Source: Minisyncoccota bacterium
GTDB taxonomy: Bacteria > Patescibacteriota > Minisyncoccia > Phycocordibacterales > CSBR16-193
DNA: 64,000 nt
Direction: 5' to 3'
NCBI GenBank assembly: GCA_040905715.1
Contig: JBBDRA010000003.1
Location: forward strand, 199,075 to 263,074
How positions within the stretch are numbered: the first letter of the stretch is position 1; every line of letters begins with the position of its first letter. The notes beneath the pieces were generated by a model. That model had not been told where the DNA came from. It ran no database searches and was given only the letters and a program-made list of their open reading frames with translations. Made by a program: the position numbers and the translations under genes. This document shows positions 5,281 to 34,528 of the stretch, piece after piece.

Positions 5281-6948
5281 TTAGGGGCGTAGCTCACCTG
5301 GTAGAGCGTCGGTCTCCAAAACCGAAGGTAGCAGGTTCAAGTCCTGTCGCCCCTGCAATTTAGGATTTTTAGCGTAGATTTCACTCAAATCCCTTTTATC
5401 CTCGCCGTATTTAGGTGGTTCTAACCTATCGTGAATAGCGTCCACTGCTTTCTTCATTGATTTCATAGGAAATAGCAGATTATCCCAATCAATTCGCAGT
5501 ATTTTGTCTTTAAGGATTAGGTTCGAACCTAATGTAGCGAATATTTCTTTTTTCGTTTCCAAATTGTTACTTTCTCTAGCTTCGGCAAAGAGGGAAGACG
5601 CCTTTTCAGCAAAACTAAATCCACGTTCTGCTATCTCAAGCCAGTTATCTACACGCTTGTCTGTGCCCTTGAGAAGTTCTTGATATTTATCCTTCTCTTC
5701 AAGTAGTTTTTGTTTTCGCTCACGAAACTCTTCCTCACTAAGTTCATCATTGGCACGCATATCAATCAGGTTATCTAACCTGCGTACGCATGATTCATAT
5801 CCTCGCCTCTGTGAGCTGTAAATGAGTTCTCGGTCATCTACCTCCTTTGAGTTCATTTCCTTGAGCCGTGCCAGTGCCCAGTCTTTGAAATCAGTGGGTA
5901 TTTCTACAGATTCCAATTCTTTTGCTATTTGCTTTTCAAGCTCCTTTTCTTCAATCGGGGACTGACTGCAATTTGGGTCCTTTCGTTTCGTGCAGTGATA
6001 ATAGGTGTAATAGTGTGAGTTGCCATTCTTTTGGTGCTTCACTTTCTCCTCAGCTGTAATCATGGCTCCACACTCACCACATTTTAGAGGACCACGGTAG
6101 GCAATAGTATGTCGTTTTGGTCGTGTTGTATTTTCTCTGCCTAGCATTTGCTGTACTCGCTCATACTCTTCTCGAGTCACCAGAGGCTCATGTTTCCCCT
6201 TATAGGTATTACCGTCGTGCTCAATAACTCCCATATAGAAAGGATTAGTAAGTATCCTGTAGGCAGTACTTCTAGCGACTGGTTTGTTGCCACCTCGCTT
6301 TGTTTTACGAGTTCGCAGACCCCATTCATTATTTGCTATATCTAAAATCTGAGTCGGACGATAATTGCCTGTTAGCATTAAATCCCAAATCTTACGGATA
6401 AGGTTGAACCGCTCTGGGTCCTTGATGATGGTTTTTTCAGATTTGTCATTTAGGTAACCAATTGGCGGTAGGCTAGTAGCCCATCCTCTTTTTAGTCTAC
6501 CTAAGTTGCCTCGTTTTACATTTTTACTTAAATCAAGAACGAATTGGTTTGCTACTCCACTTTCCACATTAAATAGCAGTACATTATCTCCAGGGAGGTA
6601 TTCTCTGTCTACTGTTTGTATGCTCTGGAGTACGTTGCTTTGCAAGAGCCAGCTTAATCTACCACTGTCTACTGGATTGCGAGAGAGGCGGTTGATTTGC
6701 CAGCAAAGTATGCCGTCCGCTTCACCGTCCTCAACTCGTTGCAACATCTCCTCAAAAACAGGGCGATTGTTTGGAGTTTTTGCTGATTTCGATTCCGTAA
6801 GGTGTTCAATAATTTCAATGTTGAGATTATGAGCAAGTTCCGTGAGGCGGTTTGTTTGGTCCTCTATAGATTGTATCTGTCGGTCCTCACTCTCAGAGGA
6901 TTTCCGAGCATATAAAAAGTATCGTTTTTTGTTCGTATCTTTGCTCAT
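5281..6948 (-). CDS. large serine recombinase (resolvase N-terminal domain, recombinase domain, Zn-ribbon)
   Basis: N-terminal YFLYARKSSESEDRQ catalytic-serine motif; C-terminal CxxC..C zinc ribbon; coiled-coil; ATG at 6948 preferred (the listed 6984 start is TTG); the last 24 codons run antisense across tRNA-Trp. Confidence 0.9.
   Translation of the reverse strand: MSKDTNKKRYFLYARKSSESEDRQIQSIEDQTNRLTELAHNLNIEIIEHLTESKSAKTPNNRPVFEEMLQRVEDGEADGILCWQINRLSRNPVDSGRLSWLLQSNVLQSIQTVDREYLPGDNVLLFNVESGVANQFVLDLSKNVKRGNLGRLKRGWATSLPPIGYLNDKSEKTIIKDPERFNLIRKIWDLMLTGNYRPTQILDIANNEWGLRTRKTKRGGNKPVARSTAYRILTNPFYMGVIEHDGNTYKGKHEPLVTREEYERVQQMLGRENTTRPKRHTIAYRGPLKCGECGAMITAEEKVKHQKNGNSHYYTYYHCTKRKDPNCSQSPIEEKELEKQIAKELESVEIPTDFKDWALARLKEMNSKEVDDRELIYSSQRRGYESCVRRLDNLIDMRANDELSEEEFRERKQKLLEEKDKYQELLKGTDKRVDNWLEIAERGFSFAEKASSLFAEARESNNLETKKEIFATLGSNLILKDKILRIDWDNLLFPMKSMKKAVDAIHDRLEPPKYGEDKRDLSEIYAKNPKLQGRQDLNLLPSVLETDALPGELRP
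5283..5355 (+). tRNA. tRNA-Trp (anticodon CCA)
   Basis: AGGGGCG acceptor; anticodon loop CTCCAAA; T-arm GCAGG-TTCAAGT-CCTGT; close to the canonical bacterial tRNA-Trp. Confidence 0.9.
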
Positions 6949-6985
6949 ATAAAAACCCGAAAGGGACGGTCTGTGTTGAACCAAC

Positions 6986-10154: not shown

Positions 10155-10292
10155 AGTAATTGTAATATGGTTCCCATACTAGCATCTTTATATACTTTCG
10201 AAATCTTGAAGTGTATGGTTTAATAAACCTACACAACTGAATATTGTTACGACCTAACCCTTAGGAATTGCTCTTGAGGCATGGTCCAAAAA

Positions 10293-10338
10293 CGCTACGA
10301 ACATAGAAAACCCGTCATCAGGGCGTTCGTAGCGTTGC
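10293..10338. promoter_or_regulatory. 12-bp inverted repeat in the divergent intergenic region of the island
   Basis: aacgctacgaac ...22 nt... gttcgtagcgtt. Confidence 0.35.
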
Positions 10339-10434
10339 CAGGGGAAACTCTGGTAGAGGTAACCGAAAGGTGCCTTCCTGGTGGCGGGCTTTGTGTATCT
10401 GCCGCCAGGCGTTACTAACTATTACTATTTTCGT

Positions 10435-31676: not shown

Positions 31677-31705
31677 TTGACATATATACAATATGATGTA
31701 TTATA
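31677..31705 (+). promoter_or_regulatory. sigma70-like promoter TTGACA-16-TATTAT
   Basis: perfect -35 hexamer. Confidence 0.5.
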
Positions 31706-31744
31706 TATTTCAGTATGTTGTTGCTTTTACATAAGGAGTTTCAG

Positions 31745-31978
31745 ATGAACATGATGTGTGAGTGCCCCGGTTGTTCGGCGAAGCGAATGGTCTTTCTAGT
31801 GATCTATCGTGAGGCCGTTGGCGAGTTCCCTTCGATCAAGAGGGGGTGGTGTCCGAATTGCGGCGAGCAGATCTTCTACTATCGAGATAGCGGTCGCGAC
31901 CGCTTTATCGGTCGTGATCAGTTGGTCGCGCTCGAAGAAAGTCGCTCGGTACAATTGGAGGCGCAGAAAGGAGAGTGA
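31745..31978 (+). CDS. small zinc-ribbon protein (cassette 1, gene A)
   Basis: SD taaggag; CECPGC ... CPNCG; 77 aa. Confidence 0.6.
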   Translation: MNMMCECPGCSAKRMVFLVIYREAVGEFPSIKRGWCPNCGEQIFYYRDSGRDRFIGRDQLVALEESRSVQLEAQKGE

Positions 31979-31980
31979 GA

Positions 31981-32058
31981 TGTCGTTCATTCGACTGACC
32001 TCGACAGGGAGAAAGATCCTGATCCTGGCGTTTCTTTTGTTTGCGGCGCTGTGTTGAA
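31981..32058 (+). CDS. 25-aa hydrophobic micropeptide (cassette 1, gene B)
   Basis: SD aaaggagag 6 nt upstream; MSFIRLTSTGRKILILAFLLFAALC; a paralog lies at 33885-33989. Confidence 0.55.
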
Positions 32059-32091
32059 ACAGGGTCGAAAGACGAAACTCCTTCTGGTTGC

Positions 32092-32131
32092 CCCCGATGG
32101 CTTGCGCGTGCAACCATCGGGGGTTTTATTT
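32092..32131 (+). terminator. strong rho-independent terminator
   Basis: cccccgatgg...ccatcggggg plus TTTTATTT. Confidence 0.75.
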
Positions 32132-32167
32132 ATCCGACAGATGATTATGTGATAGTGTTTTGATGAT

Positions 32168-33151
32168 ATGATCAGCGGTTTTTGGCAACAGCTTAATACA
32201 CCTATTATGGCACTGGCGCCGATGGCGGACGTGACCGACGCGGCATTCCGGCGCATTATCGCAAAATACGGCAAACCGGATGTGACATGGACCGAATTCG
32301 TCTCGGCCGACGGGCTTTTTTTAGGTGGGCGAGACTCGCTGATGCGTGATCTGTGGTTCGACGAATCAGAGCGGCCGATCGTGGCGCAGTTCTTTAGTCC
32401 GGATCCAAGCCGAATGAAGCAGGCGGCTGAGTTGGCAGTAGAGCTTGGATTTGACGGGATAGATCTGAATATGGGGTGTCCGGACTCGAGTGTCTGTAAG
32501 CAGGGCGCGGGCAGTGCTATGATCCGCACTCCCGAGTTGGCCCAAGATGTTGTGCGGGCAACAATGGACGGCGCCGGCGAGCTGCCTGTATCAGTCAAAA
32601 CCCGGTCCGGATATTCCTCAGACCGCGAGCTTGATGCCTGGATGAGCGCACTGATTGAAACACAGCCGGCGGCGATTACGGTTCATGCCCGAACCAAAAA
32701 GGATATGTCTAAAGTGCCGGCACGCTGGGAGCTACTGCCCCGCGTGGTTGAGTTGCGAGATCAGCATTCTCCCGATACCCGTATTCTGGGAAATGGAGAC
32801 GTGTCGAGTCTTGAGGAAGCGCATCGGCGGGTCGAGGAGACCGGCGTGGACGGAGTAATGATCGGTCGGGGAATATTCGGCAATCCGTGGTTTTTCAATA
32901 CTGACAGTGACGCGAGTACGGTTACGATCGAAGAGAAGCTTCGGGTGCTGGTGGAGCACACCAGACTTTTCGAGGAGTTGCTGGGCAACGAGAAGTCCTT
33001 TTACTTAATGAAAAAACATTTTAAGGCGTATGTATCCGGTTGGGAGGGGGCAAAAGAGCTACGAGGAAAGTTAATGGAGGCAGAGGATGCCGACGATGTG
33101 GAACAAACGATAAATACATATCTGACCCGAAAAACAGAGAAAAATACTTGA
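32168..33151 (+). CDS. dus: tRNA-dihydrouridine synthase
   Basis: ALAPMADVTDAAFRR, GIDLNMGCP, K..GAGSA motifs. Confidence 0.9.
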   Translation: MISGFWQQLNTPIMALAPMADVTDAAFRRIIAKYGKPDVTWTEFVSADGLFLGGRDSLMRDLWFDESERPIVAQFFSPDPSRMKQAAELAVELGFDGIDLNMGCPDSSVCKQGAGSAMIRTPELAQDVVRATMDGAGELPVSVKTRSGYSSDRELDAWMSALIETQPAAITVHARTKKDMSKVPARWELLPRVVELRDQHSPDTRILGNGDVSSLEEAHRRVEETGVDGVMIGRGIFGNPWFFNTDSDASTVTIEEKLRVLVEHTRLFEELLGNEKSFYLMKKHFKAYVSGWEGAKELRGKLMEAEDADDVEQTINTYLTRKTEKNT

Positions 33152-33175
33152 CAAATAATTTAATGATGTTATCTT
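33148..33175 (+). promoter_or_regulatory. sigma70-like promoter TTGACA-16-TATCTT
   Basis: perfect -35 hexamer overlapping the dus stop. Confidence 0.5.
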
Positions 33176-33241
33176 ATACCCACTGTGGTGAGATCGTCAC
33201 ACGAGTGACACACCGCAGGGTTCTTTCAGAGGAGCCTTTCT

Positions 33242-33346
33242 ATGAGGTCACCCCCGATGCAGCGTCACGAGGAGAATCTTGCTTTGAATAATTCCAGCAA
33301 CGGTGACAACAGCTCCGGCGACGGCGGCGCCTACGGCGGGCGCTGA
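33242..33346 (+). CDS. candidate 34-aa Gly/Ser/Asn-rich small protein
   Basis: GAGGAG 7 nt upstream of ATG; MRSPPMQRHEENLALNNSSNGDNSSGDGGAYGGR; about 180 nt of non-coding sequence to the terminator. Confidence 0.3.
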   Translation: MRSPPMQRHEENLALNNSSNGDNSSGDGGAYGGR

Positions 33347-33530
33347 CCCAGGCCGACGGCCGACTGTTTCCATGGTGGAGACAGTCTGAACGGGTACGCC
33401 CTTTAACCAGTGTAAAGCGCGGGAAGAGAGGTAAGCGACGAAGCACCCACACCCCGTAGTTTGGGGAGGGCTCGTTGACTGGAGGCGAAAGTCTCCTGTT
33501 GGCAAAAGAAAAAGATGCTTAGTGATTTTT

Positions 33531-33565
33531 AGGGCGGATTCTAAAATAGGATCCGCCCTTTTTCT
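33531..33565 (+). terminator. rho-independent terminator
   Basis: gggcggat...atccgccc plus TTTTT. Confidence 0.7.
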
Positions 33566-33602
33566 ATACGTCAGCGCTATCCTGCAGCTATGTCAGGAAC
33601 TA

Positions 33603-33630
33603 TTGACAAATTTTCAGGTAATCGTACAAT
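33603..33630 (+). promoter_or_regulatory. sigma70-like promoter TTGACA-16-TACAAT
   Basis: consensus hexamers. Confidence 0.5.
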
Positions 33631-33679
33631 AAAACTGTCGTTCTTTGCCTTAAGAAACCCGCAAGCGAAAGGCAGTGCT

Positions 33680-33922
33680 ATGGAAGGTTGCTAAACTCAG
33701 TGCCCGAGTTGCCACAATAACGTGATCGTTACAGACCTTGTCGACTCACCGTCGCAGGTTTCGGGGTTGCGTACGAAGGAAGGAACCTGTCCCTTCTGCG
33801 AGGAGAAGATTTACCGGGTCTTGGCAGGGAATATTGGGATCTGGTATACCCGAGAGTACATCGAAACAGCGAGGGGTATCTCCAATGATCGTTCGAAATC
33901 GCGTTCGCACGCGCATCGGTGA
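33680..33922 (+). pseudogene. decayed paralog of the small zinc-ribbon protein (cassette 2, gene A), in-frame TAA after codon 4
   Basis: ATG-GAA-GGT-TGC-TAA then in-frame TQCPSC...GTCPFCEEKIYRVLAG, homologous to GWCPNCGEQIFYYRDSG of 31745-31978. Confidence 0.45.
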
Positions 33923-33989
33923 GCCCCGGGAACACTTTCCGCGCAAGATCATTATTCTCGCGGCCCTCGTGTTCGCGGCGCTCTGCTAA
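33885..33989 (+). CDS. 34-aa hydrophobic micropeptide (cassette 2, gene B)
   Basis: MIVRNRVRTRIGEPREHFPRKIIILAALVFAALC; C-terminal 15 aa about 70% identical to cassette 1, with mostly synonymous or conservative nucleotide differences. Confidence 0.5.
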   Translation: MIVRNRVRTRIGEPREHFPRKIIILAALVFAALC

Positions 33990-34004
33990 TGGACATCTGA
34001 ACAA

Positions 34005-34029
34005 AAACCCGCTTCTCGAGCGGGTTTTC
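34005..34029 (+). terminator. rho-independent terminator
   Basis: cccgct tctcg agcggg plus TTTT. Confidence 0.65.
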
Positions 34030-34038
34030 TTATAGGTA

Positions 34039-34066
34039 TTGACAAAAATACTATATTTAGTATAAT
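34039..34066 (+). promoter_or_regulatory. sigma70 promoter TTGACA-16-TATAAT with about 150-nt structured leader
   Basis: perfect consensus hexamers; the leader contains several hairpins before ATG 34223. Confidence 0.55.
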
Positions 34067-34222
34067 CATACGCAGACAATTCACAGCGACAGGGAGTTGC
34101 TGTTTAAAATATACGTTCGTTGGAAAGGGAAGAGAGAGAGAGCTCCGTACGGTGGAATCCGTGCGTTAACCAGCCTTTACTAAAGGCAGTGAACGGAAGC
34201 ACCTACACAGTAGGAGCGTCTC

Positions 34223-34528
34223 ATGTTTGGATGCGATGAAGGTAAGCGGAAAATGCAAGGTGTTGCTTTGGCGGTCGGCCTGTTCGTGGGAATGATGATG
34301 TTCGTCATTCTTTCGGGAGGTTGCACAACCCAGGTCGGCACCGGACGCATGGTCGGATTTGAAGCCGGCGTCGGTCTGTCGCTTGGAGAGAACACGTCTC
34401 TTCAGACGACGTCCAAAGACGAAACGGAAAGCGGGCGGAACATAACCGGTCGCAGTCCGTATGCCGGCAAATCGAGCACCGATACCTCGGCTGACGGTCG
34501 GCGTCAGGCGTGGGACACCCGTTTCTAA
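34223..34528 (+). CDS. small secreted protein or lipoprotein, hypothetical
   Basis: SD aggag; hydrophobic signal-like segment ending LSGGC. Confidence 0.5.
   Translation: MFGCDEGKRKMQGVALAVGLFVGMMMFVILSGGCTTQVGTGRMVGFEAGVGLSLGENTSLQTTSKDETESGRNITGRSPYAGKSSTDTSADGRRQAWDTRF

What the first reader, a model, noticed from the sequence alone, without database searches (positions are those of the whole stretch)
31677..34029. Two paralogous cassettes: small zinc-ribbon protein plus hydrophobic micropeptide, each with its own promoter and terminator
Cassette 1 runs from 31677 to 32131. It has a TTGACA-16-TATTAT promoter, a 77-aa protein with CECPGC...CPNCG, and then, 2 nt later, a 25-aa peptide MSFIRLTSTGRKILILAFLLFAALC with an excellent SD, followed by a strong terminator. 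Cassette 2 runs from 33603 to 34029. It has a TTGACA-16-TACAAT promoter, a homologous zinc-ribbon ORF (GTCPFCEEKIYRVLAG versus GWCPNCGEQIFYYRDSG), and a 34-aa peptide ending RKIIILAALVFAALC, again followed by a terminator. The peptides share the C-terminal motif RKI(L/I)IL-A(F/A)L(L/V)FAALC. Their nucleotide differences are mostly synonymous or conservative, which indicates selection on the peptide rather than on an RNA structure. The architecture is a short basic N-terminus plus a single C-terminal TM helix. This resembles type I toxins and membrane-stress micropeptides, but pairing with a zinc-ribbon protein is not a described system that I can name.
Basis: partly seen in the sequence, partly recalled or inferred. 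Interest (0 to 1): 0.7.

Follow-up and report, generated by a model that had tools for sequence, protein, structure and literature searches.

The report
Conserved membrane micropeptide, duplicated, with zinc-ribbon neighbour
The two cassettes are real, but the lasting part is a 25-34-residue membrane peptide from an unnamed family that always ends ...FAALC-stop; the zinc-ribbon gene is an add-on seen in one narrow lineage and is broken in two of its three known copies.

Summary
The window comes from a 'Candidatus Paceibacterota' (CPR) genome. Both cassettes exist: a near-consensus promoter, a small Cys4 ORF, a micropeptide ORF with a strong ribosome-binding site, and a hairpin terminator.

- The cassette-2 zinc-ribbon frame has an in-frame TAA at codon 5 (33692-33694), present in three independent assemblies. 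Only one CxxC knuckle can be translated.
- The only orthologue found (L005) has a 1-nt deletion in its zinc-ribbon gene.
- pep2 starts at 33885.

The zinc-ribbon protein has one homologue cluster among 1.84 billion representatives. The micropeptide belongs to at least 57 clusters of 29-32-aa proteins ending R-[RK]-K-I-L-I-L-x-x-L-x-F-A-A-L-C-stop. It matches no Pfam, NCBIfam or PDB entry. Substitutions are strongly third-position biased.

In 11 GC-rich loci, two of them named Phycisphaerae, the peptide gene stands alone with no zinc ribbon. It lies divergent from an uncharacterised secreted protein, ~600-690 aa where complete.

Best reading: an autonomous tail-anchored membrane micropeptide, probably an accessory subunit of a membrane protein. 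It was duplicated here together with a dispensable, lineage-specific zinc-ribbon gene. A type I toxin, lipobox signal peptide, leader peptide or RiPP precursor is not supported. Function is inferred, not shown.

The parts
31677..31704 (+). Cassette 1 promoter, TTGACA-16-TATTAT
   Evidence: It matches 11 of 12 consensus positions. Both hexamers are conserved in the orthologous locus L005 while the flanks diverge.
31745..31978 (+). ZR1: intact 77-aa Cys4 zinc-ribbon protein with a C-terminal helix
   Evidence: ORF with an AAGGAG ribosome-binding site. Against L005 there are 20 synonymous and 17 nonsynonymous codon changes in this frame, versus 2/28 and 3/25 in the other two frames. Only one homologue cluster exists among 1.84 billion representatives. 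The AlphaFold2 model has four strands and a helix at pLDDT 65.
31980..32057 (+). pep1: 25-aa micropeptide MSFIRLTSTGRKILILAFLLFAALC
   Evidence: AAGGAG lies 6 nt upstream and the ATG is 1 nt after the ZR1 stop. A family profile built without it scores it E = 3.4e-6 among 2729 six-frame segments. The L005 orthologue is MSFIRLTPTGRKVLILSLLVFAALC.
32090..32134 (+). Cassette 1 intrinsic terminator
   Evidence: Hairpin of -27.7 kcal/mol (z = -4.7) followed by UUUUAUUUAU. L005 keeps the hairpin after base changes on both arms, -26.9 kcal/mol.
33603..33630 (+). Cassette 2 promoter, TTGACA-16-TACAAT
   Evidence: It matches 11 of 12 consensus positions.
33680..33922 (+). ZR2: relic of the zinc-ribbon paralogue, with an in-frame TAA at 33692-33694
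   Evidence: The frame reads MEGC*TQCPSCHNN...GTCPFCEEKIY. BLASTP against ZR1 gives E = 7e-5. The TAA is present in three independent assemblies. No start codon lies between the TAA and the first CxxC.
33885..33989 (+). pep2: 34-aa micropeptide MIVRNRVRTRIGEPREHFPRKIIILAALVFAALC
   Evidence: GAGGGG lies 8 nt upstream. The family profile scores it E = 1.3e-6. A public gene-calling pipeline called it as a gene (P0009).
34004..34033 (+). Cassette 2 intrinsic terminator, readable on both strands
   Evidence: Hairpin of -15.0 kcal/mol (z = -4.2) followed by UUUUCUUAU. The scan also called it on the minus strand.

Best explanation
**Shown**
- Each cassette is a self-contained, strongly signalled transcription unit.
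- Its conserved product is a 25-34-aa micropeptide of an unnamed family. The family has a variable, positively charged N-terminal part, then the nearly invariant tail R-[RK]-K-I-L-I-L-x-x-L-x-F-A-A-L-C, and a stop codon directly after the Cys.
- The ZR-peptide unit exists in two related CPR organisms.
- The zinc-ribbon frame carries a clear protein-coding substitution pattern in the orthologue comparison (20 synonymous against 17 nonsynonymous codon changes), and this copy, ZR1, is intact.
- ZR2 carries a nonsense codon, and the L005 copy carries a 1-nt deletion.

**Inferred**
- The cassette was duplicated as a unit.
- The peptide inserts N-in/C-out as a tail-anchored helix.
- Its membrane segment is far more conserved than a simple anchor needs. 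It therefore most likely docks onto a conserved membrane protein as a small accessory or regulatory subunit, with the terminal Cys at or beyond the outer face.
- The zinc-ribbon protein is a lineage-specific cytoplasmic gene, co-transcribed and translationally coupled upstream of the peptide. It is at most an optional helper, because the peptide gene is kept where ZR is broken or absent.
For: **Family membership**
- Profile searches find at least 57 clusters of 29-32-aa proteins. All 49 sequences read end in ...ALC.
- A profile built without the window or L005 sequences hits only pep1 and pep2 in the window.

**Coding selection**
- Across 13 DNA copies, entropy by codon position is 0.71/0.37/1.26.
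- Pairwise codon changes are 518 synonymous against 323 nonsynonymous in frame, and 103/778 and 10/821 in the other frames.
- The stop codon always follows the Cys.

**Autonomy from ZR**
- The ZR profile finds nothing in 11 peptide-bearing loci.
- ZR has one homologue cluster in 1.84 billion representatives.
- ZR2 has a nonsense codon, and L005 ZR has a frameshift.

**Expression signals**
-.

**Topology**
- The N-terminal part has net charge +3 to +5.
- The last 13 residues have mean Kyte-Doolittle hydropathy of 2.5-3.2.

**Organism**
-.
Against: - There is no experimental evidence of translation, membrane insertion or any partner.
- The hydrophobic stretch is only about 13-14 residues, which is short for a bilayer-spanning helix.
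- ZR1 is intact and the orthologue comparison shows a protein-coding substitution pattern. Its stop lies 1 nt from the pep1 start, and the pair was duplicated together, so a real ZR-peptide functional link in this lineage is not excluded.
- The L005 frameshift could be an assembly error: it rests on one low-coverage 1.2-kb contig.
- Peptides under 29 aa are not called by gene finders. My two large DNA scans used a pattern that misses the common ...LTFAALC type. The distribution in CPR genomes is therefore essentially unsampled.
Confidence: 0.55

Rival explanations
1. Obligate two-gene module. The zinc-ribbon protein and the peptide act together, for example as a holdase or insertion helper, a membrane-tethered regulator, or an antitoxin-like partner.
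For: - The ZR1 stop and the pep1 start are 1 nt apart, and the ribosome-binding site lies inside ZR1.
- The same arrangement is seen in L005.
- The pair was duplicated as a unit, in the same relative frame.
- The ZR frame shows a protein-coding substitution pattern between orthologues.
- The 60 nt around the ZR-stop/peptide-start junction are unusually conserved between the window and L005.
Against: - Two of the three known ZR copies are disrupted while the peptide stays intact.
- Eleven other peptide loci have no ZR.
- ZR has no relatives beyond one cluster.
Confidence: 0.2
2. Type I-toxin-like or membrane-damaging peptide. A small hydrophobic peptide depolarises the membrane when expressed.
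For: - Size and hydrophobicity fit.
- The genes are stand-alone with their own promoter and terminator.
- There are two copies.
Against: - No antisense promoter overlaps either ORF. The only minus-strand site near cassette 2 (34079-34050, 9 of 12) runs straight into the two-way terminator.
- The peptides have a near-consensus promoter, a strong ribosome-binding site and an unstructured initiation region, z = +0.4 to +1.6.
- The membrane segment is nearly invariant.
- The gene position is fixed in the GC-rich lineage.
Confidence: 0.1
3. Signal-peptide-like element. The ORF is a free lipoprotein-type signal peptide that is processed at the Cys, or released as a hydrophobic signalling peptide in the manner of enterococcal pheromones cut from lipoprotein signal peptides (from my own knowledge).
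For: - The layout is a positively charged region, then a 12-13-residue hydrophobic region, then Cys.
- The hydrophobic stretch has signal-peptide length rather than membrane-span length.
Against: - Position -1 is Leu in all 49 sequences read. The lipobox needs Gly, Ala or Ser there (PROSITE PS51257 rule, from my own knowledge).
- Nothing follows the Cys.
Confidence: 0.07
4. Leader peptide or attenuator. Translation of pep1 controls read-through of terminator 1 into dus.
For: - dus starts 38 nt after terminator 1 with no promoter call in between.
- L005 has the same arrangement.
- Weak, sub-threshold Trp and Leu leader hits lie at cassette 2.
Against: - Cassette 2 is followed by a perfect promoter belonging to the next gene.
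- In the GC-rich loci the downstream gene is convergent.
- The amino-acid sequence itself is conserved, which leader peptides do not need.
- The Rfam hits sit on the terminator hairpin and fall below the gathering score.
Confidence: 0.05
5. RiPP precursor whose C-terminal Cys is modified, as in AviCys-type peptides.
For: - The C-terminal Cys is invariant.
- Thr is common five residues before it.
Against: - No modifying enzyme lies in any neighbourhood.
- That Thr is Leu, Val or Phe in many members, including both window copies.
Confidence: 0.03

Closest known systems
Bacterial small single-pass membrane proteins that act as accessory or regulatory subunits (AcrZ, MgrB, MgtS, KdpF, CydX; the tail-anchored Prli42 of Listeria). 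Named from my own knowledge.
   Same: They are 25-50 aa, with a short polar or basic end and one hydrophobic helix. They have no enzymatic domain and are encoded as independent small genes.
   Different: There is no sequence relation: no Pfam, NCBIfam or PDB match. No partner is known. The membrane segment is unusually invariant and the protein always ends in Cys. The genes are not in an operon with a membrane complex.
Type I toxins (Ibs, TisB, Hok, Fst, Ldr). Named from my own knowledge.
   Same: They are short hydrophobic peptides encoded by stand-alone genes, sometimes in several copies.
   Different: There is no antisense RNA gene signal. The ribosome-binding sites are open and strong. Sequence and synteny are deeply conserved rather than patchy.
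Lipoprotein signal peptides
   Same: They share the order basic region, then hydrophobic region, then Cys.
   Different: The lipobox rule fails because position -1 is Leu, and there is no mature protein after the Cys.
Small Cys4 zinc-ribbon micro-proteins (e.g. the HVO_2753-like and Lar-like families)
   Same: ZR1 has two CxxC knuckles about 26 residues apart and is under 80 aa. It gives weak hits to PHROG 6422, Lar-like (E 0.036 and 0.011), and to an HVO_2753-like PDB chain (E 8.7).
   Different: All hits are below any curated cut-off. There is no significant structural match.

Membership tests
Unnamed '...FAALC-stop' micropeptide family (P0007-P0064) | ORF of about 25-35 codons with its own start codon | tested here: met
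   pep1 is 25 aa and pep2 is 34 aa. Family members are 29-32 aa.
Unnamed '...FAALC-stop' micropeptide family (P0007-P0064) | C-terminal R-[RK]-K-I-L-I-L-x-x-L-x-F-A-A-L-C with a stop codon directly after the Cys | tested here: met
   Both window copies and all 11 other DNA copies fit.
Unnamed '...FAALC-stop' micropeptide family (P0007-P0064) | Significant score against a profile built without the query sequences | tested here: met
   E = 1.3e-6 and 3.4e-6. The next hit among 2729 segments has E = 0.09.
Unnamed '...FAALC-stop' micropeptide family (P0007-P0064) | Divergent neighbour: a large signal-peptide protein of unknown function (~600-690 aa where complete), as in the GC-rich loci | tested here: not met
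   No homologue lies in the 64-kb window, by hmmsearch and blastp. The rest of the genome was not searched.
Type I toxin-antitoxin | Small hydrophobic peptide ORF | tested here: met
Type I toxin-antitoxin | Antisense or adjacent sRNA gene with its own promoter overlapping the toxin mRNA | tested here: inconclusive
   The consensus scan finds no minus-strand promoter inside either cassette. The one at 34079-34050 meets the terminator at once. A consensus scan cannot exclude weak promoters.
Type I toxin-antitoxin | Toxin translation held down by a sequestered ribosome-binding site or a structured 5' region | tested here: not met
   AAGGAG and GAGGGG lie at ideal spacing. The initiation regions fold no better than shuffles, z = +0.4 to +1.6.
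Type I toxin-antitoxin | Toxicity on over-expression | not testable with these tools
   This needs an experiment.
Lipoprotein signal peptide (lipobox) | [LVI][ASTVI][GAS]-Cys, followed by a mature protein | tested here: not met
   The tail is A-A-L-C in all 49 sequences read except one (P0041, I-A-L-C), and position -1 is Leu in every one. A stop follows the Cys.
Leader-peptide attenuator | A regulated gene directly downstream on the same strand in all members | tested here: not met
   This holds only for cassette 1 and dus. Cassette 2 is followed by a separate promoter. The GC-rich loci have convergent neighbours.
RiPP precursor with C-terminal Cys | Adjacent modification enzymes | tested here: not met
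   The neighbours are ClpB-like, dus, dnaX and hypothetical genes in the window, and mdh, RtcB, GH3 and AXE1 elsewhere.
Curated zinc-ribbon families (Pfam, PHROGs, PADLOC) | Score above the family cut-off | tested here: not met
   The best Pfam scores are 16-21 bits against cut-offs of about 27. The PHROG Lar-like hits have E 0.01-0.04. PADLOC gives only E 0.005-0.04 hits to the candidate family PDC-S06, for ZR2 only, and nothing for ZR1.

The most novel reading that the evidence does not exclude
The ...FAALC-stop peptide is a previously unrecognised small subunit or ligand of a membrane machine shared by a CPR bacterium and Phycisphaerae-type bacteria, or a gene passed between them. If it was passed, for instance between an episymbiont and its host lineage, it may serve in cell-cell or envelope interaction. 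In that reading the invariant terminal Cys and the strong preference for a TAG stop in the GC-rich lineage mark a specific chemical or translational feature.
Probability: 0.12. Interest if true: 0.75.

Novelty: new member of a known kind. Interest (0 to 1): 0.45.

Why it matters
- Micropeptides under 30 aa are invisible to standard annotation. This one shows family-wide coding selection and an almost invariant membrane segment. It occurs in two very distant bacterial groups, so it is a well-defined candidate for experimental work on small membrane proteins.
- Cultivable Phycisphaerae may carry the peptide, which would make such work practical. No cultured strain was tested here.
- For genome scanning, the case shows that a neat 'two-gene system' can be one old conserved gene plus a young, decaying passenger.

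Tried and rejected
1. **ZR1 structure.** AlphaFold2 gave pLDDT 65 and Foldseek against the PDB gave nothing with E below 1. PDB sequence search, Pfam, NCBIfam and PADLOC gave nothing usable.
2. **Programmed frameshift fusing ZR to the peptide.** The peptide frame is open upstream in all three copies. But substitutions there are almost all nonsynonymous, 2 synonymous against 28. The peptide also keeps its own ribosome-binding site and ATG, and it stands alone elsewhere. Rejected.
3. **Stop-codon recoding to rescue ZR2.** TAA ends 12 of 30 long ORFs, and it ends pep2 itself. Rejected.
4. **Disulfide anchoring of the large secreted neighbour through the terminal Cys.** That protein has no invariant Cys. 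Rejected.
5. **Identity of the large neighbour.** No Pfam or PDB match was found, even with a profile.
6. **Horizontal transfer judged from GC content.** The cassettes are 50-60% GC, but so are dus and other neighbours. Undecided. The GC3 value printed for pep2 in that call used the wrong frame and is not used.
7. **Virus carriage.** No match in IMG/VR.
8. **DNA-pattern scans.** The scans demanded a hydrophobic codon before FAALC, so they missed the common LTFAALC type. They under-count the family. One hit, L007, was a chance match inside a 293-aa ORF.
9. **Literature.** No paper contains the motif as a peptide. Searching for LOOT RNA gave no help with taxonomy.
Full report
**Origin of the window**

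Six housekeeping proteins of the window are identical to NCBI entries named 'MAG... [Candidatus Paceibacterota bacterium]', on a contig of 523 kb. The window is therefore chromosomal DNA of a CPR (Patescibacteria) bacterium. It has 46.8% GC, four tRNAs and a LOOT RNA.

**What is at the coordinates: cassette 1**
- The promoter TTGACA-16-TATTAT lies at 31677-31704 and matches 11 of 12 positions.
- An AAGGAG ribosome-binding site precedes a 77-aa ORF, ZR1, at 31745-31978. It carries CECPGC...CPNCG.
- One base after the ZR1 TGA, the 25-codon ORF pep1 (31980-32057) begins, with AAGGAG 6 nt upstream of its ATG.
- A -27.7 kcal/mol hairpin with a U-run follows.

**What is at the coordinates: cassette 2**
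- The promoter TTGACA-16-TACAAT lies at 33603-33630.
- The zinc-ribbon-like frame starts at ATG 33680.
- The 34-codon pep2 runs 33885-33989, with GAGGGG 8 nt upstream.
- A -15 kcal/mol hairpin with a U-run follows.

- The cassette-2 zinc-ribbon frame reads MEGC-TAA-TQCPSCHNN... The stop at 33692-33694 lies upstream of the first CxxC.
- No start codon lies between that stop and the knuckle. The longest translatable product starts at GTG 33722 and has only one CxxC.
- The same TAA is in Logan assemblies of three separate sequencing runs.
- TAA is the commonest stop of long ORFs here, 12 of 30.
- ZR2 is therefore a nonsense relic.

**Are the cassettes paralogous and more than chance?**
- ZR1 versus ZR2 gives BLASTP E = 7e-5 over both knuckles.
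- A ZR profile hits only these two places in the window.
- The peptide lies in the +1 frame relative to ZR in both cassettes.
- The last 16 codons of the two peptides, stop included, share 13 of 16 residues at 69% nucleotide identity. The differences fall 4/2/9 by codon position, and the other two frames agree in only 5-6 of 15 residues.

**The zinc-ribbon protein is nearly an orphan**
- The word-indexed search returned only ZR1 itself.
- The exhaustive HMMER search of 1.84 billion representatives found one true relative, P0002. The other hits were repeat proteins.
- P0002 lies on L005, a 1.2-kb contig with the same layout upstream of dus.

Comparison of the window with L005:

| Region | Synonymous codon changes | Nonsynonymous codon changes |
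|---|---|---|
| First 11 codons of ZR | 4 | 0 |
| Alignable remainder of ZR (55 codons) | 16 | 17 |
| Same bases of that remainder read in the +1 frame | 2 | 28 |
| Same bases of that remainder read in the +2 frame | 3 | 25 |

- ZR is, or recently was, a real protein-coding gene.
- L005 nevertheless lacks one base in the 30 nt after CPGCS, which splits the gene.
- Restoring a single G gives a full-length homologue. I cannot tell a real mutation from an assembly error.
- ZR1 matches no curated family above cut-off and no PDB sequence.
- Its model has four strands and a C-terminal helix at pLDDT 65, with no significant structural neighbour.

**The micropeptide is not an orphan**
- A degenerate DNA pattern for its tail found a Phycisphaerae MAG and related metagenome contigs with ...RKILILAALFFAALC-stop.
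- Profile searches of the protein collection then gave at least 57 clusters of 29-32-aa proteins. All 49 sequences I read end in ...ALC, most as RRKILILxLLTFAALC.
- A profile built from these alone hits exactly pep2 (E = 1.3e-6) and pep1 (E = 3.4e-6) among 2729 six-frame segments of the window. Both alignments run to the last residue.
- Thirteen DNA copies show entropy of 0.71/0.37/1.26 by codon position.
- Their pairwise codon changes are 518 synonymous against 323 nonsynonymous in frame, versus 103/778 and 10/821 off frame.
- A stop codon comes directly after the Cys every time. This is selection on a translated peptide.
- The family has no Pfam, NCBIfam or PDB match. No paper in the library holds the motif as a peptide.

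**Context elsewhere**
- I fetched loci for nine further family members. Together with those from the DNA scans, they have 60-66% GC.
- Two sequences carry Phycisphaerae names: L006 and P0031.
- In the eight loci where the neighbour was extracted and compared, the peptide gene lies divergent from a large signal-peptide protein.
- The gap is usually 80-190 nt as called. The exception is L012, where the called gap is about 660 nt but the neighbour ORF can be extended to within about 360 nt.
- This neighbour is 668-690 aa in five complete copies, and 595 aa as called (697 aa if extended) in a sixth. Copies are 31-60% identical to the L011 copy. It has no Pfam or PDB match.
- The downstream gene varies: mdh, RtcB, GH3 or AXE1.
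- The ZR profile finds nothing in any of 11 peptide-bearing loci.
- The window has no homologue of the large protein.

**Interpretation**
- The conserved unit is the peptide.
- Its N-terminal part has net charge +3 to +5. Its last 13 residues are strongly hydrophobic. This predicts an N-in, tail-anchored orientation, which is an inference.
- A membrane segment this invariant across such distant genomes suggests a specific helix-helix contact with a conserved membrane partner rather than simple anchoring.
- ZR is a lineage-specific upstream gene, translationally coupled to the peptide. It was duplicated with the peptide and then lost in one copy.

**Against the type I toxin reading**
- No antisense promoter lies within either cassette.
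- The ribosome-binding sites are strong and open, with z = +0.4 to +1.6 against shuffles.
- The gene position is fixed in the GC-rich lineage.
- The peptide survives where ZR is broken.

**Against the other readings**
- Lipobox signal peptide: position -1 is always Leu and nothing follows the Cys.
- Attenuator: downstream genes are convergent elsewhere.
- RiPP precursor: no modifying enzymes lie nearby.

**Limits**
- No expression data exist.
- Peptides under 29 aa are absent from protein collections.
- My two large DNA scans used a pattern that misses the common LTFAALC type, so the spread of the family in CPR genomes is unknown.
- The direction of any transfer between CPR and Phycisphaerae is also unknown. 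GC content does not decide it.

**Verdict**
- The 'zinc-ribbon plus peptide system' reading is only partly right.
- What is new is an unannotated, well-conserved micropeptide family of unknown function.

Noticed in passing
window 33148-33565 (+): A promoter (TTGACA-16-TATCTT with an extended TG) and a 13-bp-stem terminator (33531-33559) bracket a unit of about 385 nt. It has no convincing ORF and no Rfam match. It folds much better than shuffles (z = -3.97, 0 of 100 shuffles as stable). It is a candidate structured non-coding RNA between dus and cassette 2.
   Followed up: partly
window 34039-34528 (+): A perfect TTGACA-16-TATAAT promoter (12 of 12) is followed by a leader of about 155 nt and a 101-aa ORF with a signal- or lipoprotein-like N-terminus. 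This is the fourth strong promoter within 2.5 kb.
   Followed up: no
window 32131-32168: dus starts 38 nt after the cassette-1 terminator with no promoter call in between, and L005 has the same arrangement. dus may depend on read-through from the cassette-1 promoter.
   Followed up: no
L011 3839-5908, L018 3809-5815, L019 3798-5849, L021 3840-5912 and others (minus strand): A conserved large signal-peptide protein lies divergent from the micropeptide gene in the eight GC-rich loci compared. It is 668-690 aa in five complete copies, with 51 invariant columns and no invariant Cys. It has no Pfam or PDB match. It is an uncharacterised gene pair in its own right.
   Followed up: partly
L006, L008, L011, L016, L018-L022: stop codon of the micropeptide: Nine of ten GC-rich copies end in TAG, although TAG ends only about 19% of long ORFs in the same loci. 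The binomial P is about 3e-6, ignoring shared ancestry. Sequence after the stop is not conserved, so read-through is unlikely. The preference is unexplained.
   Followed up: partly
window 31955-32015 versus L005 335-395: About 60 nt spanning the ZR stop and the first 12 peptide codons differ at only 4 bases and show no synonymous change, although the loci are 84% identical overall. The segment is not unusually structured. This may reflect a constraint on translational coupling.
   Followed up: partly
window 5281-6984 (-) and 5283-5356 (+): A large serine recombinase ORF (XisF/Ccr-like, E = 1e-25) abuts or overlaps tRNA-Trp. This suggests an integrated element at a tRNA site.
   Followed up: no
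window 10251-10376 (+): A LOOT RNA (Rfam RF03000) scores 75.6 bits against a gathering score of 46.4.
   Followed up: no
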